IMG/VR virus record: IMGVR_UViG_3300037455_000221
Span: 1-64,000 of that record
Direction: 5' to 3' (one strand)
Length of the DNA: 64,000 bases
Source: a virus
Taxonomy: Duplodnaviria; Caudoviricetes
Below are positions 978 through 63,640 of the stretch, piece after piece. Every line of letters starts with the position of its first letter. The first letter of the stretch is position 1. The translations under genes were made by a program, and so were the position numbers. The notes under the pieces were generated by a model. The model saw only the letters and a list, made by a program, of their open reading frames with translations, did not search any database and was not told the DNA's origin.

Positions 978-1502
978 TTACCTCCATTTGATTGTTTTTT
1001 CGGCCCATTCCTTTGACTTGCTAAATCCGGAATATCCTTTGTACACTTGTTTTGGATTGTCTAAATCAATGTAATACTCTTCCTTTCCTACTTTCTTATA
1101 TACTTTTCCAATAGAGAATTTTCCAACCGAAATAACTCTTTCTCCGTTTATATATAGCATTCGGTGTGTATTCGAATTACAATGTATCATTTCGTATAAG
1201 TCCTCAGTGCTGAAAACCCTCTCCCCGACTGCTCTGAGGGCATCTTGATAGTAGTATGCATTGTACCCATTACCAGCCTTATATTTTGAAGTATTTACTT
1301 TGGGATAAAACATTAATTTTCCGTTTTCCCTTACAACAAGATCAGTCTGCGCCAACCACACATCTTCGTTATCTTTAGCGTCTTTTATGGTGTTTTCGTC
1401 AAAACAATCTTGTGCGAAATTATCGATTGTTTGTCCAGCTCCCTTACATAAGTAGATAATGAGGGCTATTGCAGTCATTAGTAGACTAGTTAGTATAAAC
1501 AT
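978..1502 (-). CDS. membrane-anchored hypothetical protein
   Basis: Hydrophobic N-terminal helix MFILTSLLMTAIALIIYL; AAGGAGG RBS. Confidence 0.7.
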   Translation of the reverse strand: MFILTSLLMTAIALIIYLCKGAGQTIDNFAQDCFDENTIKDAKDNEDVWLAQTDLVVRENGKLMFYPKVNTSKYKAGNGYNAYYYQDALRAVGERVFSTEDLYEMIHCNSNTHRMLYINGERVISVGKFSIGKVYKKVGKEEYYIDLDNPKQVYKGYSGFSKSKEWAEKTIKWR

Positions 1503-1541
1503 AAACACCTCCTTTTATACTTTACATTATAACAATAAATG

Positions 1542-1601
1542 TGGGGATATTGTGGATATCTCGTGGATATGTGGATAGTTAGGGGATAAGTTTGTGGATA
1601 G
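1542..1601. repeat. cluster of six co-oriented DnaA-box-like 9-mers
   Basis: tggggatat, tgtggatat, cgtggatat, tgtggatag, aggggataa, tgtggatag versus consensus TGTGGATAA. Confidence 0.65.
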
Positions 1602-1658
1602 TTTTATTGAATAATAGTGCGAGAAAAGTGCTTCACCAACACCGCACAAAAAAATAAC

Positions 1659-1740
1659 ATTATTACGAAATAAAATTGCGTTATTTTTGATATTAAAATG
1701 ATATCATTTTATTGCATTTATTTAATTATTTTGTAATAAT
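1659..1740. promoter_or_regulatory. candidate recombination site (attP/res-like) next to the tyrosine recombinase
   Basis: 15-bp inverted repeat (1659-1673 / 1726-1740, 1 mismatch) around the perfect 18-bp palindrome taaaatgatatcatttta (1694-1711). Confidence 0.45.
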
Positions 1741-2690
1741 TATGTAATACTTTTATTAATTATTTCCATTCCTTTCTTACTTTCTTTTCCATCTGTGCGG
1801 ATGTATCTCTGTGTGGTGGTAGAGTATGCATGGCCTACAGCACGGCGGACGAACTCTATGTCGTGGGTCTGATCATAGAGGACGGAGCAGTAGCCGGCTC
1901 TCATGGAATGAGGATTAAGTTTGTCGCCGGAGTATTTCTTCACTACATATCTTACCACGTCATGGCTGATCCTGTCACCGTCCCTGGATACAAATAGAGC
2001 ATCTGTTTTCTTTTGACGTGCAACAAGAAGTCTGCAGCGATCACGCAGCCACTGATTTAAGATTGTTACAGTGTTATCTGAAAGATAAATGGTGCGAGGG
2101 ATGTTTCCCTTTTCAATTACCTCTATAGAATTATCATCTGTGTTTATATCAGAGATATCTATAGAAGTCAAGGCTGTCTCCCTGAGACCGGTTTCAATTA
2201 AGATTGCAACGATCAAAGTGTCACGGTTCTTTAGGGTACATTGGCCGCCATAAAAGTAACGATCCACGTCTGCTGCTGCGTTGCATTTTACATCGATCAT
2301 ATTCTTAGCGGTAACAGTAATTGGTCTGTGCGGGTCATGATTTTTGCAGCGTCTGATCCCATCCATATAATTAGAAGGAGTTATCCCTTCCTCATATAAA
2401 TAAGTAAAGAATGAATTTAAAGTGTACCAAATAGATGTACGGTATGTGTCGGTCAGATCCTTGCTGCGGAGATCCATGAAGTAGGAAATAACATCGTTAC
2501 GAGTTAGATCCGGCAGCGGGCGTCCCATTAGGAACGCCTTTACCTTTTGAATACGATCGCGACGGGTAACAGCTGTAAGCCCGGATGCGAACATAAGATT
2601 ATCCCAAACTTGTAATTCCTTTGGAGCCCCGTCAAGCAGATTAGATATAGCCTGAGCTATTCTGTTTTCATTCTCTTGTCTGCCGGTCAT
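1740..2690 (-). CDS. tyrosine recombinase (XerC/D-integrase family)
   Basis: Catalytic motifs TGLRETAL, EKGN, PHSMR, VGHAYSTTTQRY. Confidence 0.93.
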   Translation of the reverse strand: MTGRQENENRIAQAISNLLDGAPKELQVWDNLMFASGLTAVTRRDRIQKVKAFLMGRPLPDLTRNDVISYFMDLRSKDLTDTYRTSIWYTLNSFFTYLYEEGITPSNYMDGIRRCKNHDPHRPITVTAKNMIDVKCNAAADVDRYFYGGQCTLKNRDTLIVAILIETGLRETALTSIDISDINTDDNSIEVIEKGNIPRTIYLSDNTVTILNQWLRDRCRLLVARQKKTDALFVSRDGDRISHDVVRYVVKKYSGDKLNPHSMRAGYCSVLYDQTHDIEFVRRAVGHAYSTTTQRYIRTDGKESKKGMEIINKSIT

Positions 2691-2702
2691 ATGATCACCT
2701 CC

Positions 2703-2885
2703 TTAGTTATCATCATCCCAGTCATAGCGATCAAACGCTATGTTCTCTTCGTCATCATAGTCATAATCAAAAGAGGAGCGGGATCTGTTACCATACGCAC
2801 GTTCGTTGTATTCCCTTCTGTGACCAAGAGCAAAGAAGTCGTCGTCCATTAAAGACTCATCGTATTCACCATCATAATTAGACAT
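2703..2885 (-). CDS. small, highly acidic protein
   Basis: 60 aa, D/E/Y-rich; GGAGGT RBS. Confidence 0.7.
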   Translation of the reverse strand: MSNYDGEYDESLMDDDFFALGHRREYNERAYGNRSRSSFDYDYDDEENIAFDRYDWDDDN

Positions 2886-2903
2886 AAGATTACCTCCATT
2901 AAT

Positions 2904-2932
2904 ATTATACGTTTACATTGTAATACTGTCAA
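2904..2932 (-). promoter_or_regulatory. consensus sigmaA/sigma70 promoter
   Basis: Minus strand TTGACA-17 bp-TATAAT; the spacer contains the palindrome TTACA-A-TGTAA. Confidence 0.85.
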
Positions 2933-2955
2933 CTAATGCGTAAGTAAAGATGTTT

Positions 2956-3159
2956 TTACGCAATTGTTACAACAAGCTTTCCTTCAAAAGTACCAAATCC
3001 CACCCTGACTTCAGTTACCTGACAGTCGTGGATAGACTCATCCCGGCCATCCAATCTCATAAGGCCAGTACCGGTGTACTTGGCGATCACGTTGCCTCGC
3101 CCATTGAGGATGACAACAAAGCTTCCCCTACAAGTTGATAACAAATCAATTAGTTTCAT
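2956..3159 (-). CDS. hypothetical protein
   Basis: ORF with AAGGAG RBS in early array. Confidence 0.65.
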   Translation of the reverse strand: MKLIDLLSTCRGSFVVILNGRGNVIAKYTGTGLMRLDGRDESIHDCQVTEVRVGFGTFEGKLVVTIA

Positions 3160-50466: not shown

Positions 50467-50700
50467 ATGAATGAAAAGAGATATGAAACAAGTAAGATAA
50501 CCGGAAGGACATACGAGCTATTCTCACAGATAAGAATACTAAATATACAGCAATGTATTTTTTATCTGGAGAATGGCGTTGTCCTTAATGATATAGAAAT
50601 TAGTGAAGACCGTAAGACGCATCAGCCGATTATGGTCTTTTTATTTAATAGAGAAGACACTTACGATGCCTATGATAAATGGTGTAAGCGTCATCAGTAA
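50467..50700 (+). CDS. hypothetical protein
   Basis: AAAGGAG RBS. Confidence 0.65.
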   Translation: MNEKRYETSKITGRTYELFSQIRILNIQQCIFYLENGVVLNDIEISEDRKTHQPIMVFLFNREDTYDAYDKWCKRHQ

Positions 50701-50710
50701 GGAGACGTTT

Positions 50711-51208
50711 ATGAGGATAATGGGCATTGATGCTAGTACGACATGTTCGGGTGTGGCGGTAATTGAGGATGGCAAACTTATATATCATGATGCTATTGAT
50801 ATGAAGAAGAATAAGGATGCTGAGCAGCGAGTTAAAAACATGATGAGTGAGTTGGGTGAGATCATAAAAGCCTACTCTCCCACTGCCGTATATATTGAGG
50901 ATTCATGGAATAAACAAAATATTGAAACCACGAAGATGTTATCTAATTTGTTAGGCGCAGTGATGTATGTGTGCCAGGATCTTGGGTGTGAGTTTACAAA
51001 ATTACTTCCATCAGCTTGGCGTAGTTTAACCGGGATAAAAATGGTTGGTAAAGGCGGTACACATCTTAAACGCACTGAGCTTAAGCAAGAGGCTGTAAGT
51101 AAAGTAAAAAAGAATTACAAGATAGATTGTGGCGACGATGAAGCCGAAGCTATATGTATTGCTGAGGCTGGGTGGTTGTCACAAGATTCTGAGTGTTTAT
51201 TTGAATGA
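50711..51208 (+). CDS. ruvC: RuvC-like Holliday junction resolvase
   Basis: IMGIDASTTCSG, VYIED, PSAWR, DDEAEAI. Confidence 0.85.
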   Translation: MRIMGIDASTTCSGVAVIEDGKLIYHDAIDMKKNKDAEQRVKNMMSELGEIIKAYSPTAVYIEDSWNKQNIETTKMLSNLLGAVMYVCQDLGCEFTKLLPSAWRSLTGIKMVGKGGTHLKRTELKQEAVSKVKKNYKIDCGDDEAEAICIAEAGWLSQDSECLFE

Positions 51209-52399: not shown

Positions 52400-55300
52400 A
52401 TGGCAGAGGCTTTATATTCAATTAAAGTAGAAATTGATGAAAAAACTCTTAAACAAACTACAGCAAAGACTCAGCAATATATAGAAAAACGCTTAGGTAA
52501 TAATAAGGTAAAACTGAACCTTGGAACATCTGATATTGGACAAGCTCTTGGAGCCTTAAAAGAAATGGCCGGCGATAATAAAGAAATGGCTGCGTCGCTG
52601 GAGAAAACTTTCCTTACACAACAAGGAAAGATGGTCAATGCTGATCTAAGAAGTTATAAGCGTATTAACGCAAACTTTAATAAGAACAGAAAATACGATA
52701 CTGTTCTTAATAACTATTACAAAAAGTTTGAAAGGTTAAATACTAAATATGGAGAGTCTGATTCGCTAAAAGATCAACTTAGATTAATTAATGGCGTAAA
52801 AGGATTATTCACAGATATCACTACTGCAAAGAAATTAAATCTTACTTCTTACGATGGACATGACGTTCCAGATAAAATAGATAGTGACAACTTATATAGG
52901 GATCTTACAAGAAAAATTCTTTCGGAGCTGAGATCTAATATGTCAACCATGATGAATCCTGATATACAAAATGCAATCAGTGATTTAGAGAAGTGGGTTG
53001 AAAGTACAGGTAAAAGAAATACATATAATCTTTATAATGAAGGTGATATAGGATCGGTTATAAAGTCATTAACAGATTCAAAAGCTAATATTGATAAATG
53101 GAAGCAACAAGCTGTTAATGCTGTTAAGCAATCAACTGAAGAGATCAATAATGTAGCTAAGGTTGCTAACAATGCTCAAAAGTCAATTGCAAAATCTTCA
53201 GGGAATAAAGGGAAAAAGAAGTTATCTTTAGAGGCCTTACAAAATCAATACGACGAAATTGTTGGTAAAGATTTAGATGATACTGAAATTACTGAAGAAG
53301 AAAAAGAACAATTAATTAATGTATTAAATGAAATAAAAACAAAAAACTCAGAAATTTATAAAACATTAATAGAAGATCTATCGGAATATATAGGTAATAC
53401 TTTTGTTGAAAATAACGAACATATCTTTAAAGATGTTTTAAATAACATTGAAAATTCTGATATTAAATCTTCAACCAAGGTCTTTGATGATAGTTTATCT
53501 AAGATTATTAATAATATTAAATCAGATCATGATAGAAAAAAAGATAATAAATATATTGAAGATATGTTAATTGATCGCCTTGATTATATTCTTGGTGATG
53601 AAAATAGATCATATAAAGGGAAAAAAGCCTTAACAAATGAAGAAATAAATGAGATTGTTGAAATATTAAAGTATTCAGCTATCGCCGACAAGATGTCATA
53701 TAACGGCAAAACAAGACCGGGATTATATAATAATGTAAAATCTCATTATGAAGATTTATTATTTTATGCAAGTGATGCAGAAGGATATAATGCTAAGTCG
53801 TTTAAAGATTTAGGTACTGCAATAAAATCCGTAAATGCATTTGTTGATAATTTATCTTCCGGAGATATAAATAATCTCGATCTTGTAACAAAAGAAAAAT
53901 CAAATAAATTTATACAAAATATTTCTAGAATTCAAAAACAAATATCTTCTTTTAATGATTATCTTGAAGTTATTGGTAGATTAACAGATTTAAATGGATA
54001 TAGTGATTTTGGCGAAATGGGATTTAATGGAACCAAAATCTCACATAACGAAGGTGGATCTGTTAGAGTAGGTGGAAAAACTAGGATGATAGATTATCAC
54101 TCTCATCCTTGGCAAGGATATAAAAATCTTATGCCGTCCGCCTCGGATTTACGCAGTTATTTATATGCATTGAATGATAATAAAGATAAAAATGGTAATC
54201 CTTATCTTAAAGAAGCATATATTTCGCAAGGTGATAGATTATTAAAAATAGATTTTAGTAATATAGATTGGGGTAAAACTTCTCCTGAAGAATTAAGAAA
54301 AGAATTATTTTCTACCATAATGCAAGCCGTTAAAGATGCGGGAGGAGAAATAAAAAATTCAAAATCCTTTAAGGATAAAGAATGGTATACATCTTCAGAC
54401 CCAAGATTGTCTGGGCAAATTGAAGAAGCTGTAAATAGCGCAATGCTTTCAGTACTTTCTAAGTATGGAGGCAATGTGGGTATGGCTCATAAAAATGCTT
54501 CGGGTCAATATGTTGATATGCAAACCGGAGAAATATGGGCTGGTAATAAAGAGGTTAACGAGAAATATTTTGATAAAGATATTTTTAATGGAGCTGATGA
54601 AATAGGGAAAGCCGCATCTGAGATAAGAATTGCTGCTGAAACAATTGAAAGAGCTGCAGAGATATTAACAGGAAATGACAATGATATTCATGCGGCTTCT
54701 GATGAAATAGAGCAAATTTCAGAAGGTGCTGTTTTTTCTTTACTTGATTCTATTACTAAAGAGATTCAGCGAACCAATACTAAGTTGAGTGGTAAAAATG
54801 GTATTGGAGGCACTGCTCAAGTTGGAGTATTAGAAACACTGCGAGAAAACCTAAGAGAGTTCCTGCTGACAGACAGGACGGGCGTTGAAGTATTCGGTGG
54901 TATAAAACATGAATTTAATCAAGTTCGTACAGAGAATGATATAATACTTGCTAATAAAAAATTATATACAAGTTTAGTAGCTATAACAAAAGAACTGTCT
55001 GTATTAAAATCTAAAGGATTAGGAAGAACTAAGGAATACAGAGATAAACTTGCAGAAAGAAAACGAATTACTGCCAACTTAGATTCAGCCAATGAAGAAC
55101 AAGGATATTTAATGGATTTAGCAACAGCAGAAGCAAATGCATTAGTTGCTAAACAACTTCGTGAACAACTTGATAAAGATCAAAAACAAGCAAAGGCAGC
55201 AGTAGATACAAAGATTAACGCTGGCTATGTTATTGATAGCGCTTTCCAAAAAGCTTATGAAGGCTTTGATGCCAGTGCGTTAAAAAAGATGGCCGACTTA

Positions 55301-58300
55301 ATGGAGGTCATGAATGGTAATAAAGCCGGTATTAATGTAGATACATTATTTAAATCGGTTCAAGGTATAATTACTGGTCTTGAAGATGCAAGACGTAATT
55401 TAGGTGCTAATGTTTCAAGAGCACCTAAACAAACGACTCCTGTTTCAGATAAAGACATTTCTGCTTTTGTTAATAGGATTAATAGAGAAATCCAAAAAAC
55501 TGGTATTAATGCCGTAACTGGTGGCTCTGGACAAGTTTCTGAATTAGCAAAATTAAGAGATGCTGTTCAGAATATTAATCCTAATGATCGTGATGCATGG
55601 GATGATTATAATAAACAGTTTGAAATATTAACTGGTCAAAATAATATTATAGAAGGTAATGAAAAATTATATAGGCAACTTGTAGAAATAACACAAGACT
55701 TAATTAATTTAAAATTACAAGGCAAAGATACATCAAGAGGATATCAGAATAAGTCAAATCAAAGGGAAGCAATTTTAAATAAAATTGGTGTTGCGGGAAC
55801 GAATAGAGATGCGTTAGACAAAGAGGCTAGTAAAGACGCATATTCCGCAATAGCTTCTAAGTTAATTGATAGCGTTACTAAGATTGGAAATGATACTGCG
55901 CTTGATTTTCAAGCAAAGTTTAATAAAGGATTTGATTTTGAAGATGAATTCTATAAACCATATGTTCAACTTAGTAAAGATGCAAAGGCTATAATTGAGA
56001 GACTTATGCTCGTTATGGAGGGCACAGCTACAGATGCTCAGAAGGACATAGAAGAAGCCGGTAATATTATTAAACAATTAACGGATGTAAAATCTAATAT
56101 AAATTCAAAAGCAATTAAACAAGTTGCTCCGGTAGAAGGTTCAAAGATATCTTCTCGCATTGATCAATTCTCAGCATTTATCAATAAAAAAGGGGTTTCT
56201 GTTGATGAAAATTTAAATAATTCTCTTTTACAATATATTGAGAAATTAAAGAATTTTGAAAATGATGATACAAGAAATCCTAGAATTTATGAAATGCTCG
56301 AACAAGAAGGTGATCAGCTTAAGGAGCAAATTAATGCCTTAGATCAGATTATTAAGAGATATGAGGAAACATATCAGTTACGTGTTAAAATTGCAGAGCT
56401 TGAAATCTCTGGTGAAAATCCGGAAGCTTTAGCTGATTATAATGAAGAATTAAAAAAAGAAAAGGATATTATTTCCTCAATTGCACAATCGTTTGGTGTT
56501 GATGATAGTATTACTGCAAAAATATTTGGAGATCCGTCTGAATATGAAGGCAAAAGAAAAGAATATGTAGCAAAATTACAAAATACAATTCGCGGTATAG
56601 AAACTGCTAAACTGAACGAAGAAAAAAGAGGTTATGGATATACTGAAGATTATGAAAACAGATTTAAGGTAGCAAAAGATTATACCGATTATTTAGTCAA
56701 AAGATTACAAGACACTAAGCTGTCTACGGATGAAATAAAAGAAGCATTAAAAGAGGCTTATAGATTTGTTGATGATATTAATGAGGCAGATGGATTACAA
56801 CAATTAAAAAGAGATACTCATTCAAGCGAATCTGTTATTGTAAAAAGAAATCAGGCAGCCAATCTATTTTCTTCAGCTTCTACTCTGTTAACCAAGACAA
56901 GTGGGTTTGGAGTGAGTAAAGAAGATAGAATAGAAATATATAAGATATATGCGGAATTAAAAAATATATCAGATGCTGCTGATAAGGCTGGCGGAGAAAT
57001 GTCTGATCTGAATAGAATCAGATATGATGAACTTACAGCAAGAATAAAGGATTTAACTGCAAAGTATAAAGAGTTAGGTGTATACGGAAATAATCTCTTC
57101 TCTAGAATTGGTAGAACAATTAAAGCACAAACTATTAGTGCTCTTTCTCGTTATTTCTCTTTATATGATATTATTCGTTATGTGCGCAGTGGAATTAATA
57201 CCATTAAAGAGCTTGATACAGCAATGGTTGAGCTTCGCAAGGTTACTGATGGCACTGCTCAAGAGTATGAAGATTTCAGGAAAGAGATTAATGCAACCGC
57301 TAGTGAAATTGCATCTACTAATAAAGATTTAATTAGTTCTGCAGCGGATTGGGCTAGATTAGGTTATTCGATTAAAGAAGCTACTGAACTTGCTAGGGAC
57401 GCTCAGATATTTGTAAATGTTGGAGATGGTGTTGACATTAAGGGCGCAACCGATATGATGATCACCGCCATGAAGGCATTCAACATTGAGGCTGACGAAG
57501 CATTATCAATTGTAGATAAGTATAATGAGATAGGTAATAATTTCGCATTATCAGCTACTGATATTGGTGATGCGATGCAGCGATCTGCTTCAGTTCTTGC
57601 AGCATCCAATACATCATTTGATGAATCAATAGCACTTATTACTGCCGGTAATGAAATAATCCAGGATCCTGAAAAGATGGGTACAGCTCTTAGAACTGTA
57701 GCTCTTCGTATTCGTGGTGCGAAAGCCGAGCTTGAAGAAATGGGTGAAGAAACGGATTATGTTGTAAACTCAACTTCAAAGCTTCGTGAACTTATTAAGG
57801 GTTATACAAGTATTGGTGGTAAATATGAAGGCTTTGATATCATGGAAGACGAAGATACCTTCAAATCTCTTGCAGATATTATTAAAGGTATTGGTGAAGT
57901 CTATGATGAAATGTCTGATATTGATCGTACAGCAATGCTTGATAAACTTGCTGGTAAAAATAGATCAAATGCTCTTGCAGCAATGCTTCAGAATTATAAA
58001 CAGATAGATAATGTTCTTATGTCTATTGAAGAATCTGAAGGATCTGCTATTAGAGAAAACGAGCACATCGTTGATTCGATTCAGGGTAGAATAACAAAAT
58101 TACAAACTGCAGCTGAGAATTTCTGGCAAGCATTTTTAGATACAGATTTAATTAAAGATGCAGTTAGTGCCCTTACCGAATTATTAAATAAATTAACTGA
58201 ATTTATAGATAAGCATGGAAGCGGTGAATTGCTAGCGGGTATAGCTAGCATTGCAACTCTTAGATTCACAGGAGTTGGAAATGGTTTTATCAATTCTATA

Positions 58301-61300
58301 AAGACAATAATACAGTCAAAGGTTGCGATAAGTGCTACTCAAAATGCATTATCTCAATTAACACAAGGGACTGAAGAATATATTCAGGCAGAAAAAGAAT
58401 TAGCTGATCTTAATACTTTATGTCAGGGAAGTTTTAATTCTTTAAAAATTTCAGTTAATAAAGTAATAGGAGCCCTTAAGAAAATAGGCCCAGTTGGTTG
58501 GGGTGTTATAGCTGCTATAACAGCGATTGGTGTCGTTATAACTGAACTTACAAAGAAAGAAATAAAACAAATACAGAAAGTAAAAGAATTAGCTGATGAA
58601 TATAGCAGTAGTACTAAGGAGTTAAGTAAATATAAAGAAAAAATTGGACAACTTCAATCAATATTAAGAGATGAATCTTCTACAACTGATGAACTCATAG
58701 GAGCAAAAGAAGGTTTAAATGAAATTAATGAGCAATTAATGTCTTCGTATGAAAGTTTGAAGGGACGTATTGATTTAGCAAATATGTCACTTGAAGACAC
58801 TGTTGATTTGATTAATAAACTTGATCAAAAGAAATTAAACGATATAATTACAGCAGCTACCGGAAGAGAATCTGATTTTGCATATGCGCTTTCTGACGGA
58901 TTTGATTTTACAGATCTTGGAAAAGTATTTAATGGTAGTAGGTCTGAATTAGACAGAGCGATTAATTTTTATTTAAATGGATTAGATGCTAGGAATAATA
59001 CGACACTTCAAGCAGGCCTTAGTCATCTTGATACTACTAAAACTGCGCGTGAACAATATGCTGAGCTGTTAAAATTAATAGATGAACAAACAGCTATTAT
59101 ATTAGATGAAAATAGTAGTGCATTTACCAAATGGGAAGCAGAACGATTAAATTCTATTTTATTAGCAACTAAAGATGCCTTTGACGAGACTTTCGAACAG
59201 CTAGGTAATATTGAGGCAGCATATGGAAGTACATTGTTATCAAAATATGAAGATGCATATTCTAAATACCAAAATGCTGAATTAAATTATATATTAGATA
59301 AAAGTGAAGAAACAAAAAATGCGTTAAGCCAAGCATTAAGAGATTTATGGAAGACTGCTTCAGAAGAAGATAAAGTTGCAATTGAAGAATACATGAAAAT
59401 AAAATATGGAGAATCGTTCGGAACTCCTGATGATTGGAATTTTGACGACTATCAAAATAATAGAGTATTTATTCGTCATGCAACTGGTCGTTATATTGGT
59501 GATGATAGTAAGAATGGCGATATTACGAACTTACTTTCATTTAACAATTTAGATGAAGCATTAGAATATATAATAGAAAAAACTGGGAAAGAATTAAAGT
59601 CTCAGGAATTTATAGATTGGGCTTCAGTTAGCGATAGTGAGTTAGTATCATTGCGCGGGCATGGTGCTGATAATGAAATAGATTCAGGACTTATTCTGTT
59701 TAGAGAGCTTGTTAAAACTAGTGGGCAAGATTTAGATTATTTTATTGACAGATTAGAAGAACTTGGATATTCCATATCTCCAAAAGAAGATTATTTTAGA
59801 CAATATTTAGAAAAATCTCGCAATGAATCTATTGCAAAATTTGGATCTGGTTTTGCTGATCAATTTGATAAATTGAATCTTTCCACCGGAACACAAATAG
59901 ATATTTGGAATAGTATTAGAGATCAAGCTACTAATGCAGCAGAAGCGGTTGAAATGTATCGTCTTAAGATGAGCGGGCTTGAAGCGTCTACTAGTGCTAA
60001 TGATGTTCTTAAAGATATGGAAGAACAGTATAAGCCTACATTTGACGCAATGGCTGAAGCATATAAGGCTATATGGGATGATAAAAATGTATTCCAGGGA
60101 ATGGATAAAATCACTTCCGAACAGATTAATTCTGTACGTTCACAATTAGAAAGCGTTAATTCTAGTCTTAAAGAAAATGGATTAGATATGATTGATTCGT
60201 CTGAAATTGATGATTTCATACTTACGCTTTCCGACGCTGATGCAACGGCTGATGAAGTTCAAGCTGCATTTGACAATATCGCCACGGTGCTTGTTGACAG
60301 TTTAAATCCGGCATTAGGTCAAGCTTCTGGGGAAACTGCTGAATTAATGCAGAAAACACTTACTGAACTTGGTGTCACCAATGCTGAAGCAGTTGTATTT
60401 AGTAGACTTGGATATACAGCTGAAACATATGCAAAGGCTAAAGAAGCTGCCGATGCAGCTGACATAGATCTTGATGCCGAACTTAGTTCATTAAGCGATG
60501 AAGAATTACAAATAGTTGCAAATAATGAAGCATTAATGGCTTATTATAATGGTAAATTGCTTGTTGGAGGAGCAGAAATAACTACTCCTGAAGAAGCTCA
60601 ATTGCTTATTGATTATTGTAACCAAATGGGCATTGCTCAACTTGGTACTTTAAATCTTGCTAGTGCCGAAAGAGAATTACGTGCCGCAATTGATCAGACT
60701 AATGAAGGTATTAGAATTGGCAATATGGAACTTCAAGCAAGAGGAGAAGTTGGAATAGCTAACATTATTAAACAACTTAATAGTGAGAAAGCTAAAGTTA
60801 AATTTGGAGCCAAAACCATATTTAATGGCAATGAAAATAAATCTTCTTCTGGTTCTACTAAGTCTTCTGACTCTAAGCAGAAGTTTGACTGGATCGAGCG
60901 CGCCATCAAAAAGATACAGCGTGCAGTTACTAATCTTGGTAAGATAGCAGATGCTACATATAAATCATGGGGTGAACGTCTTGATGCTATTATGGGCAAG
61001 ACGCAAGAGTTCCATGATGAAATTGGTAGATTTGGACAAGGTAATATTGATTTATATAATCGTCCTCAATACATAAATGAAGATGGGTCTATATCTACTG
61101 TAAGGAGTATGTCATTTGGCGATGAATTTGGAAATGAAATATTAGTTCCAACCATAGCTTTTGATAATAATGGTAATCCTTATTCAATGTCTGACGATGA
61201 AGCGATTGCTCGTTATTATGAAACTGGTGAATATCTTGGTTTATTCAAGTCAGTTGAAGAAGCTGAAGAATATGCAGAGAAACTTCATGAGCAACAAGAC

Positions 61301-63640
61301 GCTCTTTATGTTAGTGGTGGAAACAGTTTTTATGCCGGTAAATATCAAAAGCTTAAGGAAGAGATAGCACTTCAAGAACAAGCTGCTCAGGCATATATGC
61401 AAGAGGCTAACGCTATTGGTCTTGCTGCTGAATATCGTAATAAAGTTATGAATGGTATGATGGACATCGAAACTATAAGTGATGAAACACTTAAGGAACA
61501 GATATCCGATTTCCAGGAATATTATGATAAAGCTACTGATGCTGCTGATGCTGTTGAAGATTTACGCGGCGAACTTGCTCAACTTGCTCAAGTCAAGTTT
61601 GATATGATCACAAAGCAGTTTGAAGAGATGGCCCTTGCTATCGATCATGCCGCTACACGTATTGGACATATTCAAAGTAAGATGGATTCTGAAGGTTATT
61701 TTGAGTCTTCTACTCTTATTGAACAGCTCTTATTTGGAGATAAGGAAAAGCTTTCACAGCTTGAAGATGAAGCACGTCAACTTGCCGCATCCATTGATGA
61801 GGCTGTAGCTAATGGTGACATTGAGTATGGTTCTGAACAATGGTGGGGAATGTATGACTCACTTCAGAATGTAAATGATCAGATTGTAGAAATGAAATCT
61901 AACATGGCTGACCTTAATGATCAGTTACGTCAGATGGATTGGGATAGATTTGATTATGTACAAGATTCTATAGAGCGTCTTAGAACTGAGAATGATTTCT
62001 TGATTGATACTCTGGAGACAGAGAATCAATTATTTGAAAAAGTCCAGTTAATGAATACTGATATTATGGTGTCCAATGGTAACTGGACTGAGACTGCTAC
62101 TGCTATTCAAGGACTTCGTGTGAATAACTTGGAGATCTTTAAGCAGCAGAATGAAGAAGTCGCCGAAGAAATTAAAAAGATAAATGCCGATCTTGCTAAT
62201 GATCCTAATAATAAGAAATTGTTAGAGCGTCGCAACACTTTGATAGATCAACAACAAGATATTATAAAAGGTATCACACAAGAGAAGCAATCTATTAAGA
62301 GTCTTATTCAAGAAGGCTATGAGACGTTCCTTAACTATCTACAGAAGTCTATTGATAAGCGTAAGGAAGCTCTTAGGGCTGAAAAGAATCTGTATGACTA
62401 TCAGCGTACAGTTTCTGATCAAACTAAGACTATTACTGATTATAGAAAGCAACTTGCTGCACTTAGTGGCGGAACTGATTCTGAAGAAAATCGTGCTCGC
62501 TTACAACAGCTTAAGGATGACCTTACTAAAGCTGAGAAGGATCTTCAGGATACTGAGTATGAAAGATGGTTAACTGATCAAGAAGAGATGATGGATAGTA
62601 TGTATGAGTCATTTGAGAATCTCATCAATGAAAAACTTGATGATCTTGAAGGATTAATTGAAAGTGCTATTCAGCAGACAAAAGATAATTCTGATAGTAT
62701 TGCTAAGACAATTGGCGAACAGGCTGATGAATTTATCTACGATCTTGATAACACTTCATTTGGAGTAAACTTTGATGCACGTATTAGTGATGCAGTAACT
62801 GCTGTTAATTCAGTAGAGAATGCTATTAATAATATGATTAACGCAGCAAATATAAATGCTCAGAATGAATTAGCGCAGTTGCAAGCACTTGCTCAGACCA
62901 TTGTTACTCAGGCTCAGGTTCAGGCACAACAGATTGCACAAGCTAATGCTAATATTAATAATAATGGTGGCGGCAATGGTGATGGTAATGGATCTAACGT
63001 TGATAAGACTAAGGGTTCTGATGTTACAAATACCGGGAATGATGTAAAAACAGAATCTAAAACTTCAGCCAATCAAGGTAACACAAAACTTACTTCAGAA
63101 GAAAGAAGTAGAAGAATTAGGGAACTCAATGAGGAACGTGCTTATTATTCTAATAAGGCAAGAGAAGAAGAAAGATATGCTGCTACACCTGGTTTGCTTA
63201 GTTCTGAAAGACAACAGCATCTTACTAATATGAGCTATTATGATACAAAGGCAAATCAGATAGGACAGGAAATAAACAGATTGTCTAAGTTTGCTAAGGG
63301 TGGTACTGTTGGTTCTGCTATTAGAGGCACCGGCGAAGATGGTATCATTCTTGCTCGTACCGGTGAAGAGGTACTCTCTCTTGAACGTATAAAGCAGATG
63401 CAAGGTATTTTCAAGATGATGCAGCCTCTTGCCGCACTTGGCACTAATAAGACCATTAGTAACATTGGTGGTACTACTACTGTCAATGGCATGAACGTAT
63501 CGTTTGAGCTACCTAATGTAACAAGCTATGAAGACTTTGTACGCCAGGCTAAGAGCGATCCTACGTTTGAGAAGTTGGTACAAAATATAACTATAGGCAC
63601 AGCCCTAGGAAAAAGTAAATTGAGTAAATACTCACTGTAA
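52400..63640 (+). CDS. tape measure protein (3746 aa) with embedded JAB/MPN motif
   Basis: TP901-type core IKELDTAMVELRKVTD...N.F.L...DIG (about 57180-58200), long helical repeats, C-terminal FAKGG...ARTGEEVL. Confidence 0.9.
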   Translation: MAEALYSIKVEIDEKTLKQTTAKTQQYIEKRLGNNKVKLNLGTSDIGQALGALKEMAGDNKEMAASLEKTFLTQQGKMVNADLRSYKRINANFNKNRKYDTVLNNYYKKFERLNTKYGESDSLKDQLRLINGVKGLFTDITTAKKLNLTSYDGHDVPDKIDSDNLYRDLTRKILSELRSNMSTMMNPDIQNAISDLEKWVESTGKRNTYNLYNEGDIGSVIKSLTDSKANIDKWKQQAVNAVKQSTEEINNVAKVANNAQKSIAKSSGNKGKKKLSLEALQNQYDEIVGKDLDDTEITEEEKEQLINVLNEIKTKNSEIYKTLIEDLSEYIGNTFVENNEHIFKDVLNNIENSDIKSSTKVFDDSLSKIINNIKSDHDRKKDNKYIEDMLIDRLDYILGDENRSYKGKKALTNEEINEIVEILKYSAIADKMSYNGKTRPGLYNNVKSHYEDLLFYASDAEGYNAKSFKDLGTAIKSVNAFVDNLSSGDINNLDLVTKEKSNKFIQNISRIQKQISSFNDYLEVIGRLTDLNGYSDFGEMGFNGTKISHNEGGSVRVGGKTRMIDYHSHPWQGYKNLMPSASDLRSYLYALNDNKDKNGNPYLKEAYISQGDRLLKIDFSNIDWGKTSPEELRKELFSTIMQAVKDAGGEIKNSKSFKDKEWYTSSDPRLSGQIEEAVNSAMLSVLSKYGGNVGMAHKNASGQYVDMQTGEIWAGNKEVNEKYFDKDIFNGADEIGKAASEIRIAAETIERAAEILTGNDNDIHAASDEIEQISEGAVFSLLDSITKEIQRTNTKLSGKNGIGGTAQVGVLETLRENLREFLLTDRTGVEVFGGIKHEFNQVRTENDIILANKKLYTSLVAITKELSVLKSKGLGRTKEYRDKLAERKRITANLDSANEEQGYLMDLATAEANALVAKQLREQLDKDQKQAKAAVDTKINAGYVIDSAFQKAYEGFDASALKKMADLMEVMNGNKAGINVDTLFKSVQGIITGLEDARRNLGANVSRAPKQTTPVSDKDISAFVNRINREIQKTGINAVTGGSGQVSELAKLRDAVQNINPNDRDAWDDYNKQFEILTGQNNIIEGNEKLYRQLVEITQDLINLKLQGKDTSRGYQNKSNQREAILNKIGVAGTNRDALDKEASKDAYSAIASKLIDSVTKIGNDTALDFQAKFNKGFDFEDEFYKPYVQLSKDAKAIIERLMLVMEGTATDAQKDIEEAGNIIKQLTDVKSNINSKAIKQVAPVEGSKISSRIDQFSAFINKKGVSVDENLNNSLLQYIEKLKNFENDDTRNPRIYEMLEQEGDQLKEQINALDQIIKRYEETYQLRVKIAELEISGENPEALADYNEELKKEKDIISSIAQSFGVDDSITAKIFGDPSEYEGKRKEYVAKLQNTIRGIETAKLNEEKRGYGYTEDYENRFKVAKDYTDYLVKRLQDTKLSTDEIKEALKEAYRFVDDINEADGLQQLKRDTHSSESVIVKRNQAANLFSSASTLLTKTSGFGVSKEDRIEIYKIYAELKNISDAADKAGGEMSDLNRIRYDELTARIKDLTAKYKELGVYGNNLFSRIGRTIKAQTISALSRYFSLYDIIRYVRSGINTIKELDTAMVELRKVTDGTAQEYEDFRKEINATASEIASTNKDLISSAADWARLGYSIKEATELARDAQIFVNVGDGVDIKGATDMMITAMKAFNIEADEALSIVDKYNEIGNNFALSATDIGDAMQRSASVLAASNTSFDESIALITAGNEIIQDPEKMGTALRTVALRIRGAKAELEEMGEETDYVVNSTSKLRELIKGYTSIGGKYEGFDIMEDEDTFKSLADIIKGIGEVYDEMSDIDRTAMLDKLAGKNRSNALAAMLQNYKQIDNVLMSIEESEGSAIRENEHIVDSIQGRITKLQTAAENFWQAFLDTDLIKDAVSALTELLNKLTEFIDKHGSGELLAGIASIATLRFTGVGNGFINSIKTIIQSKVAISATQNALSQLTQGTEEYIQAEKELADLNTLCQGSFNSLKISVNKVIGALKKIGPVGWGVIAAITAIGVVITELTKKEIKQIQKVKELADEYSSSTKELSKYKEKIGQLQSILRDESSTTDELIGAKEGLNEINEQLMSSYESLKGRIDLANMSLEDTVDLINKLDQKKLNDIITAATGRESDFAYALSDGFDFTDLGKVFNGSRSELDRAINFYLNGLDARNNTTLQAGLSHLDTTKTAREQYAELLKLIDEQTAIILDENSSAFTKWEAERLNSILLATKDAFDETFEQLGNIEAAYGSTLLSKYEDAYSKYQNAELNYILDKSEETKNALSQALRDLWKTASEEDKVAIEEYMKIKYGESFGTPDDWNFDDYQNNRVFIRHATGRYIGDDSKNGDITNLLSFNNLDEALEYIIEKTGKELKSQEFIDWASVSDSELVSLRGHGADNEIDSGLILFRELVKTSGQDLDYFIDRLEELGYSISPKEDYFRQYLEKSRNESIAKFGSGFADQFDKLNLSTGTQIDIWNSIRDQATNAAEAVEMYRLKMSGLEASTSANDVLKDMEEQYKPTFDAMAEAYKAIWDDKNVFQGMDKITSEQINSVRSQLESVNSSLKENGLDMIDSSEIDDFILTLSDADATADEVQAAFDNIATVLVDSLNPALGQASGETAELMQKTLTELGVTNAEAVVFSRLGYTAETYAKAKEAADAADIDLDAELSSLSDEELQIVANNEALMAYYNGKLLVGGAEITTPEEAQLLIDYCNQMGIAQLGTLNLASAERELRAAIDQTNEGIRIGNMELQARGEVGIANIIKQLNSEKAKVKFGAKTIFNGNENKSSSGSTKSSDSKQKFDWIERAIKKIQRAVTNLGKIADATYKSWGERLDAIMGKTQEFHDEIGRFGQGNIDLYNRPQYINEDGSISTVRSMSFGDEFGNEILVPTIAFDNNGNPYSMSDDEAIARYYETGEYLGLFKSVEEAEEYAEKLHEQQDALYVSGGNSFYAGKYQKLKEEIALQEQAAQAYMQEANAIGLAAEYRNKVMNGMMDIETISDETLKEQISDFQEYYDKATDAADAVEDLRGELAQLAQVKFDMITKQFEEMALAIDHAATRIGHIQSKMDSEGYFESSTLIEQLLFGDKEKLSQLEDEARQLAASIDEAVANGDIEYGSEQWWGMYDSLQNVNDQIVEMKSNMADLNDQLRQMDWDRFDYVQDSIERLRTENDFLIDTLETENQLFEKVQLMNTDIMVSNGNWTETATAIQGLRVNNLEIFKQQNEEVAEEIKKINADLANDPNNKKLLERRNTLIDQQQDIIKGITQEKQSIKSLIQEGYETFLNYLQKSIDKRKEALRAEKNLYDYQRTVSDQTKTITDYRKQLAALSGGTDSEENRARLQQLKDDLTKAEKDLQDTEYERWLTDQEEMMDSMYESFENLINEKLDDLEGLIESAIQQTKDNSDSIAKTIGEQADEFIYDLDNTSFGVNFDARISDAVTAVNSVENAINNMINAANINAQNELAQLQALAQTIVTQAQVQAQQIAQANANINNNGGGNGDGNGSNVDKTKGSDVTNTGNDVKTESKTSANQGNTKLTSEERSRRIRELNEERAYYSNKAREEERYAATPGLLSSERQQHLTNMSYYDTKANQIGQEINRLSKFAKGGTVGSAIRGTGEDGIILARTGEEVLSLERIKQMQGIFKMMQPLAALGTNKTISNIGGTTTVNGMNVSFELPNVTSYEDFVRQAKSDPTFEKLVQNITIGTALGKSKLSKYSL

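What the first reader, a model, noticed from the sequence alone, without database searches (positions are those of the whole stretch)
53990..54280. JAB/MPN (JAMM) metalloprotease motif inside the tape measure protein
Seen: E...IDYHSHPWQGYKNLMPSASDL, matching E-HxH-x7/8-PS-xx-D, near residue 567 of the TMP. Known: TMPs are ejected into the cell, and JAB domains remove ubiquitin-like conjugates, including in CBASS (Cap3) and Bil-type defence. Inference: a virion-delivered counter-defence deconjugase, or an autoprocessing domain that trims the oversized TMP.
Basis: partly seen in the sequence, partly recalled or inferred. Interest (0 to 1): 0.75.

Follow-up and report, generated by a model that had tools for sequence, protein, structure and literature searches.

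The report
JAB-like zinc enzyme in tape measure
The 3,746-residue tail "ruler" protein of this uncultured 130-kb phage carries a very divergent domain that probably has the JAB/MPN zinc-hydrolase fold and keeps every catalytic residue, so the tail probably carries an enzyme, but its target is unknown.

Summary
The motif is real. Residues E539, H567-S-H569-P570 and S580-A-S-D583 lie in ORF 52400..63640 (+), a 3,746-aa tape measure protein (PF10145 and TMP PHROGs). The spacing is HxH-x10-SxxD, not the canonical x7. Shuffles of the protein give such a motif 0.3% of the time.

An exhaustive search of 1.8 billion representative proteins found four other clusters with this ~200-aa domain. All are giant TMP-like proteins, and in all of them E, HxHP, PS and D are invariant at 36-46% identity.

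The nearest described clade is Tox-JAB-2/DUF4329 (Zhang 2012), which also occurs in giant viruses and phages. Its authors suspect nuclease rather than Ubl-peptidase activity.

The anti-defence or autoprocessing role is untested. This scan has noted JAB-like domains in giant TMPs of other phage genomes. I found no paper describing one.

The parts
52400..63640 (+). Tape measure protein gene, 3,746 aa (P0001)
   Evidence: Single open frame. PF10145 and TMP PHROGs 4211/1272/28/167 match. It lies in the structural-gene block.
53948..54556 (+). JAB/MPN-like domain, aa ~517-719: a compact catalytic core followed by a family-specific alpha/beta part
   Evidence: A domain HMM matches aa 515-719 once per protein. 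AF2 model m39168921be5c. JAB/MPN chains dominate the VIA-align wide search.
54014..54016 (+). E539, candidate general-base Glu in the invariant GE-x-G-[FY]-NG stretch
   Evidence: Invariant in all five clusters. It follows the first helix, where the JAMM Glu sits. This part of the model has low confidence.
54098..54109 (+). H567-S-H569-P570, candidate zinc ligands (H[ST]HP)
   Evidence: Invariant. It lies at the end of predicted strand 74-79 of the fragment.
54137..54148 (+). S580-A-S-D583: candidate oxyanion Ser and third zinc ligand Asp
   Evidence: P-S-x-x-D is invariant. It opens predicted helix 92-104 of the fragment.
57281..57955 (+). Canonical TMP core (PF10145, aa 1628-1852), about 900 residues downstream of the JAB-like domain
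58481..58549 (+). The only strongly hydrophobic segment, starting at aa 2028 (KIGPVGWGVIAAITAIGVV) and read here as aa ~2028-2050
   Evidence: Kyte-Doolittle scan, 19-residue window.

Best explanation
Residues ~517-719 of the tape measure protein form a very divergent member of the JAB/MPN+ (JAMM) zinc-hydrolase superfamily. It resembles most the compact Tox-JAB-2/DUF4329-like clade. By analogy with solved JAMM enzymes, H567, H569 and D583 would hold a zinc ion, E539 would activate the water, and S580 would stabilise the intermediate. This assignment is inferred, not shown. The domain sits in a long N-terminal extension upstream of the canonical TMP core. It is the best-conserved element of that extension in the small lineage of giant TMPs that has it. 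The most likely role is a virion-borne enzyme that leaves the tail with the TMP at infection and cuts a host molecule. That molecule could be a peptide or isopeptide bond, or a nucleic acid as proposed for the RadC and Tox-JAB clades. My odds: intact JAB-type active site about 0.8; delivered-enzyme role given that, about 0.55.
For: The motif is rare by chance and sits in a His-poor protein. E, HxHP, PS and D are invariant across five clusters at 36-46% identity, in which only 38 of 241 columns are invariant. The predicted element order is helix, Glu, strands, strand ending in HxH, loop, helix opening with SxxD, beta hairpin, which is the JAMM order. In a search of 48,161 PDB representatives, 16 of the top 20 rows are JAB/MPN proteins. 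Minimal enzymes align over most of their length: AfJAMM 83 of 103 residues at rmsd 3.3, RadC 87 of 126 at rmsd 3.1, PfJAMM1 86 of 129 at rmsd 3.4. BRCC36 is again first in the second-look search. The ESM Atlas nearest named clusters are DUF4329, Toxin-JAB1 and Prok-JAB, at lead-level scores of 0.82-0.85. hhalign gives 89% probability to a stand-alone giant-virus family with invariant E, HxH and SxxD. BFVD fold hits at E 4.6e-6 to 3.9e-4 go to giant-virus and phage proteins, matching the taxa Zhang et al. list for Tox-JAB-2 (PMC3482391). For the role: each TMP has one copy, its position shifts from aa 239 to 814, and its flanks are poorly conserved or unrelated. TMP ejection is established knowledge for lambda gpH and T5 pb2. 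Virion proteins that carry effector enzymes have precedent (PMC5512222).
Confidence: 0.45

Rival explanations
1. The domain is a morphogenetic protease. It acts during tail assembly, in cis or in trans, trimming the oversized TMP or another tail protein. It would be analogous to the JAB domain of the lambda tail-tip assembly protein K.
For: Lambda K carries HSHP-x7-SxxD in its reading frame, beside the tail genes. C-terminal processing of lambda gpH is established knowledge. A cleaved extension would solve the problem of fitting a globular domain into the tail lumen. The invariant KYGG at aa 688-691 resembles a Ubl-type tail.
Against: No cleavage site is known. KYGG lies inside the confidently folded part of the domain and is followed by conserved strands, so it looks structural. 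No Ubl-like partner gene was identified. The role of lambda K's JAB domain is itself unproven.
Confidence: 0.22
2. The domain is a cell-wall hydrolase. It would cut peptide cross-links of peptidoglycan during penetration, as the M23, NlpC/P60 and transglycosylase domains of other TMPs do.
For: Enzymatic domains in TMPs are usually cell-wall hydrolases (established knowledge; PMC5512222). Pfam, PHROGs and NCBIfam detect no other lytic domain in this TMP.
Against: No JAB-fold peptidoglycan hydrolase is known to me. The M23/LAS signature (H-x3-D upstream, HxH last) is absent, because H549 is not conserved. The model is alpha/beta rather than the mostly-beta M23 fold. The domain lies far from the C-terminal, tip-proximal end where TMP lysins usually sit.
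Confidence: 0.08
3. The domain is not a JAB enzyme. It would be a lineage-specific structural or binding domain whose His/Asp residues bind a metal for stability or serve another purpose, and the fold resemblance would be a generic alpha/beta arrangement.
Against: Every catalytic residue of the JAMM signature, plus the hallmark Pro after HxH, is invariant and in the right order on the right predicted elements. The fold predicted from the motif is also the top-ranked fold in an independent search.
Confidence: 0.15

Closest known systems
Tox-JAB-2 / Pfam DUF4329 (PF14220), JAB clade of polymorphic toxins, also in giant viruses and Xanthomonas phage OP1 (Zhang et al. 2012, PMC3482391)
   Same: Both share the signature 'E, H[ST]H, S, D' and have the Glu close upstream of HxH. 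Both occur in giant viruses, algal viruses and tailed phages. DUF4329 is the nearest named Atlas cluster. Both are carried on delivered proteins.
   Different: PF14220 does not score on the domain. hhalign to the OP1 ORF24 family gives Prob 9%. This domain is about 200 aa with an extra C-terminal alpha/beta part, against about 115 aa. It is embedded in a TMP, not at the C-terminus of an Rhs-type toxin and not a small secreted protein. No adjacent immunity gene is evident.
Minimal and canonical JAMM/MPN+ isopeptidases (AfJAMM 1R5X, PfJAMM1 5LD9, Rpn11, CSN5, BRCC36, AMSH/Sst2)
   Same: The order of E, HxH(P) and SxxD is the same, and these chains give the top structural matches.
Cap3 of type II CBASS, and the JAB deconjugases of Bil/Bub operons
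   Different: Those are stand-alone, host-encoded, and belong to PF14464, which does not match here. No E1/E2/Ubl genes were looked for beyond that.
Lambda gpK (JAB plus NlpC/P60 tail-tip assembly protein)
   Same: Both place a JAB motif in a siphophage tail-module protein.
   Different: gpK is a separate small assembly protein with canonical x7 spacing. It is not part of the TMP, and no sequence similarity to this domain was detected.
Enzyme-bearing virion proteins: polyvalent proteins and MuF fusions (Iyer et al. 2017, PMC5512222); TMPs with M23 or lysozyme domains
   Same: In both, enzymes are built into virion proteins that leave the particle at infection. RadC-type JAB domains occur in polyvalent proteins.
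   Different: That paper does not mention tape measure proteins (0 occurrences). The JAB clade here is different.

Membership tests
JAB/MPN+ (JAMM) superfamily | Catalytic constellation Glu ... His-x-His ... Ser-x-x-Asp, in that order | tested here: met
   E539, H567, H569, S580 and D583 are invariant in five clusters.
JAB/MPN+ (JAMM) superfamily | Canonical spacing H-x-H-x7-S-x2-D | tested here: not met
   The spacing is x10 in all five TMPs and x15 in the related giant-virus family. For this reason I file the domain only as a divergent superfamily-level relative.
JAB/MPN+ (JAMM) superfamily | MPN fold | tested here: inconclusive
JAB/MPN+ (JAMM) superfamily | Recognition by curated models (PF01398, PF14464, PF04002 and others) | tested here: not met
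   No JAB-clan hit at E up to 10 on the fragment. PF14464 gives no match in the whole genome at E up to 1.
JAB/MPN+ (JAMM) superfamily | Zinc binding and metal-dependent hydrolysis | not testable with these tools
Tox-JAB-2 / DUF4329 | Signature E, H[ST]H, S, D on a compact core (PMC3482391) | tested here: met
Tox-JAB-2 / DUF4329 | Match to PF14220 | tested here: not met
   The same model does find OP1 ORF24, at 19.5 bits.
Tox-JAB-2 / DUF4329 | Profile-profile similarity to bona fide members | tested here: inconclusive
   hhalign to the narrow OP1 ORF24 family gives Prob 9%. It gives 89% to a stand-alone giant-virus family, but that family's own assignment to Tox-JAB-2 rests only on Zhang's statement that algal viruses have such versions.
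Phage tail tape measure protein | PF10145 core, TMP PHROGs, position in the tail module | tested here: met

The most novel reading that the evidence does not exclude
The TMP-borne JAB domain is a phage counter-defence deconjugase. It would strip host ubiquitin-like modifiers, either from the phage's own tail proteins during assembly (Bil-type systems conjugate a Ubl to the central tail fibre; bioRxiv 10.1101/2023.09.04.556158) or from CD-NTase conjugates just after entry. That would be the first enzyme of this kind built into a virion structural protein.
Probability: 0.1. Interest if true: 0.85.

Novelty: new variant of a known kind. Interest (0 to 1): 0.55.

Why it matters
Tape measure proteins are mainly seen as length rulers that sometimes carry cell-wall lysins. 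A conserved, apparently active JAB-type zinc hydrolase in the ruler would add a new enzyme class to the proteins a tail can deliver. It would also define a JAB family that every curated model misses. And it would give a concrete candidate for phage counter-measures against bacterial ubiquitin-like or nucleotide-signalling defences, or a new self-processing step in tail assembly. The same domain kind appears in giant-virus proteins and, on fold leads only, perhaps in phage 'minor capsid' proteins, so a biochemical answer would carry over widely.

Tried and rejected
1. Sequence-model searches. Pfam, PHROGs and NCBIfam scans of the fragment and of the whole TMP at lax E-values gave no JAB hit. 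Genome-wide scans with PF14464, PF14220 and PF15659 also gave none.
2. PDB sequence searches. phmmer with the fragment returned only noise. A profile of the giant-virus family found no JAB chain.
3. Searches for relatives. tblastn against 50,697 phage records found nothing, even at E 10. The word-index homolog search returned only the query itself. The genome-contig scan found nothing. The metagenome scan returned only the contig already held.
4. First fold. The single-sequence model was too poor to use (pLDDT 55.5).
5. Foldseek against PDB gave no match at E <= 0.001.
6. hhalign to the OP1 DUF4329 family gave Prob 9%.
7. Pfam scan of the 29 giant-virus family members showed no JAB-clan family.
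8. A second domain copy or internal repeats were not found.
10. Lambda K was considered as a JAB reference and dropped, because its annotated frame lacks the Glu-bearing N-terminus.
The genomic context of P0002-P0004 was therefore not seen.
13. Literature searches for JAB/JAMM in tape measure proteins found nothing relevant.

Full report
**The observation**

The window is the first 64 kb of a 129,646-bp IMG/VR virus record rated complete. ORF 52400..63640 (+) encodes a 3,746-aa protein, P0001. It is a tape measure protein. PF10145 matches aa 1628-1852 (E 3.7e-24), and four TMP PHROGs match aa ~1350-3100 (best E 3.5e-68). Upstream genes match virion-protein PHROGs.

The quoted string is present exactly. 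The motif residues are E539, H567, H569, P570, S580 and D583, at nt 54014-54148. The spacing is HxH-x10-SxxD, not x7/8. The protein has only 21 histidines. A motif of this form arose in 62 of 20,000 shuffles.

**Conservation**

An exhaustive phmmer search of 1.84 billion representatives with aa 490-730 found only four other clusters, at E 1e-39 to 4e-53. All four are very large proteins: 1,647, 1,770, 3,943 and 5,101 aa.

They share the N-terminus and the TMP core with P0001. The two shorter ones end at or inside the PF10145 region, so they are probably truncated TMPs. One viral contig of 123.7 kb (L002/L005) carries a near-copy of P0005.

At 36-46% identity, 38 of 241 columns are invariant. 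These include E, H, H, P, the Gly after the motif, P-S and D. Each protein has exactly one copy. Its position ranges from aa 239 to aa 814. The flanks are weakly conserved or unrelated: about 2,000 residues of P0004 after the domain have no counterpart in P0001. The domain is therefore the best-conserved element of a mosaic N-terminal extension.

**What the domain is**

No curated sequence model sees it. This holds for Pfam, PHROGs and NCBIfam on the fragment, for PF14464, PF14220 and PF15659 on the whole genome, and for PDB sequences.

A single-sequence fold was poor. With the six-row alignment the model reached pLDDT 67.5 and pTM 0.71. Fragment residues 90-225 are confident, and residues 44-71, which include the Glu, are weak. 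The element order is that of JAMM enzymes: helix, Glu, strands, a strand ending in HxH, a loop, a helix opening with SxxD, then a hairpin. An extra alpha/beta part follows.

Foldseek against PDB found nothing. VIA-align against 48,161 representatives, which does not depend on Foldseek, ranked JAB/MPN proteins in 16 of the first 20 rows. Further MPN proteins (Npl4, Prp8, an eIF3 subunit, BubCD) appear lower in the list.

|---|---|---|---|
| Rpn11 | 4.9 | 4.9 | 111 |
| BRCC36 complex | 4.7 | 4.0 | 98 |
| RadC | 4.5 | 3.1 | 87 of 126 |
| CSN5 | 4.4 | 5.4 | 118 |
| PfJAMM1 | 4.0 | 3.4 | 86 of 129 |
| AfJAMM | 4.0 | 3.3 | 83 of 103 |
| Sst2 | 3.8 | 4.4 | 118 |
| Cap3 | 3.5 | 3.8 | 89 |

**Nearest relatives**

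The ESM Atlas nearest named clusters are DUF4329, Toxin-JAB1 and Prok-JAB, at scores of 0.82-0.85, which is lead level only.

A viral-contig scan found a stand-alone 248-aa protein, P0006, on two giant-virus-like contigs. Its family of 45 clusters has invariant E41, H85, H87, S103 and D106 and no Pfam domain. hhalign between the TMP domain and this family gives 89% probability over 64-112 columns centred on the motif.

Foldseek against BFVD gives E 4.6e-6 to 3.9e-4 for proteins of Harvfovirus, a siphovirus and a Bathycoccus virus. Weaker hits go to several siphovirus 'minor capsid proteins' and to F317L-like proteins of asfarviruses.

Zhang et al. 2012 describe Tox-JAB-2 (DUF4329) with the signature 'E, H[ST]H, S, D'. 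They note versions in iridoviruses, mimiviruses, algal viruses and Xanthomonas phage OP1. They argue that these clades lack the Ubl-tail tunnel and may be nucleases, like RadC (PMC3482391).

PF14220 does find OP1 ORF24, at 19.5 bits, inside the tail module. hhalign of that narrow family to the TMP domain is not significant, at Prob 9%. I therefore call the TMP domain Tox-JAB-2-like, not a member.

**How it probably works**

By analogy with solved JAMM enzymes (established knowledge), H567, H569 and D583 bind zinc, E539 activates water, and S580 stabilises the intermediate. This is inferred. Invariance of exactly these residues at about 40% identity argues for catalysis.

TMPs leave the tail at infection; this is established for lambda gpH and T5 pb2. 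Phages also build effector enzymes into virion proteins, including RadC-type JAB domains in polyvalent proteins and many MuF fusions (PMC5512222). My preferred reading is therefore a delivered enzyme with an unknown substrate.

The main difficulty is steric. A trimer of folded 200-aa domains cannot lie in a tail lumen. Either the domain travels unfolded, or the extension sits elsewhere, or it is removed before assembly.

That last option is the chief rival: an assembly-time protease. Its precedent is the JAB motif in lambda K. A cell-wall hydrolase role and a non-enzymatic role are less likely. I give it about 0.1.

**Novelty**

Library searches found no paper on a JAB or JAMM domain in a tape measure protein. 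The polyvalent-protein paper does not mention tape measures. Earlier notes of this scan report the same kind of domain in giant TMPs of several other uncultured phages, so it recurs in this data set. Those notes are unchecked AI notes. They agree with what I found independently here.

**Limits**

The alignment has only six rows. P0004 was too long for the domain scans.

Noticed in passing
L003:5926-6672 (+), identical in L004: A stand-alone 248-aa protein (P0006) lies on giant-virus-like contigs. Its family of about 45 clusters has invariant E41, H85-x-H87-P and S103-G-E-D106 and no Pfam domain. It is probably an unannotated JAB-like family of algal and giant viruses, since BFVD hits include a Bathycoccus virus, Harvfovirus and F317L-like proteins.
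   Followed up: partly
window 61025-61339 (+), aa ~2876-2980 of the TMP: A block of about 105 aa beginning GNIDLYNRP falls in the gap between the P0001 segments that align to P0005 (aa 2876-2979), and in a longer unaligned stretch against P0004. It looks like a second inserted module. Pfam (best: SPOR, E 0.036), PDB sequences and the Atlas gave nothing usable.
   Followed up: partly
window 54461-54472 (+), aa 688-691: An invariant K-Y-G-G inside the domain, in the V-L-x-K-Y-G-G stretch, resembles the C-terminal tail of ubiquitin-like proteins. It is probably structural, because it lies in a confident part of the model. It would be the first place to look for self-cleavage.
   Followed up: no
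window 50603-51208 (+): A RuvC-like Holliday junction resolvase gene (phrog_159, E 3.7e-18) sits among the tail genes just upstream of the TMP.
   Followed up: no
L007:20486-20857 (-), Xanthomonas phage OP1 ORF24: The DUF4329-like protein of OP1 lies on the opposite strand inside the tail-gene block. It has Ala in place of the motif Ser (HTH-x8-A-N-A-D), and this is conserved in its relatives.
   Followed up: partly
BFVD hits: Several 485-633-aa 'minor capsid proteins' of uncultured siphoviruses match the model at E 5e-3 to 5e-2. If the matched part is a JAB-like module fused to a MuF-type head protein, the same enzyme would ride on two different ejected virion proteins.
   Followed up: no
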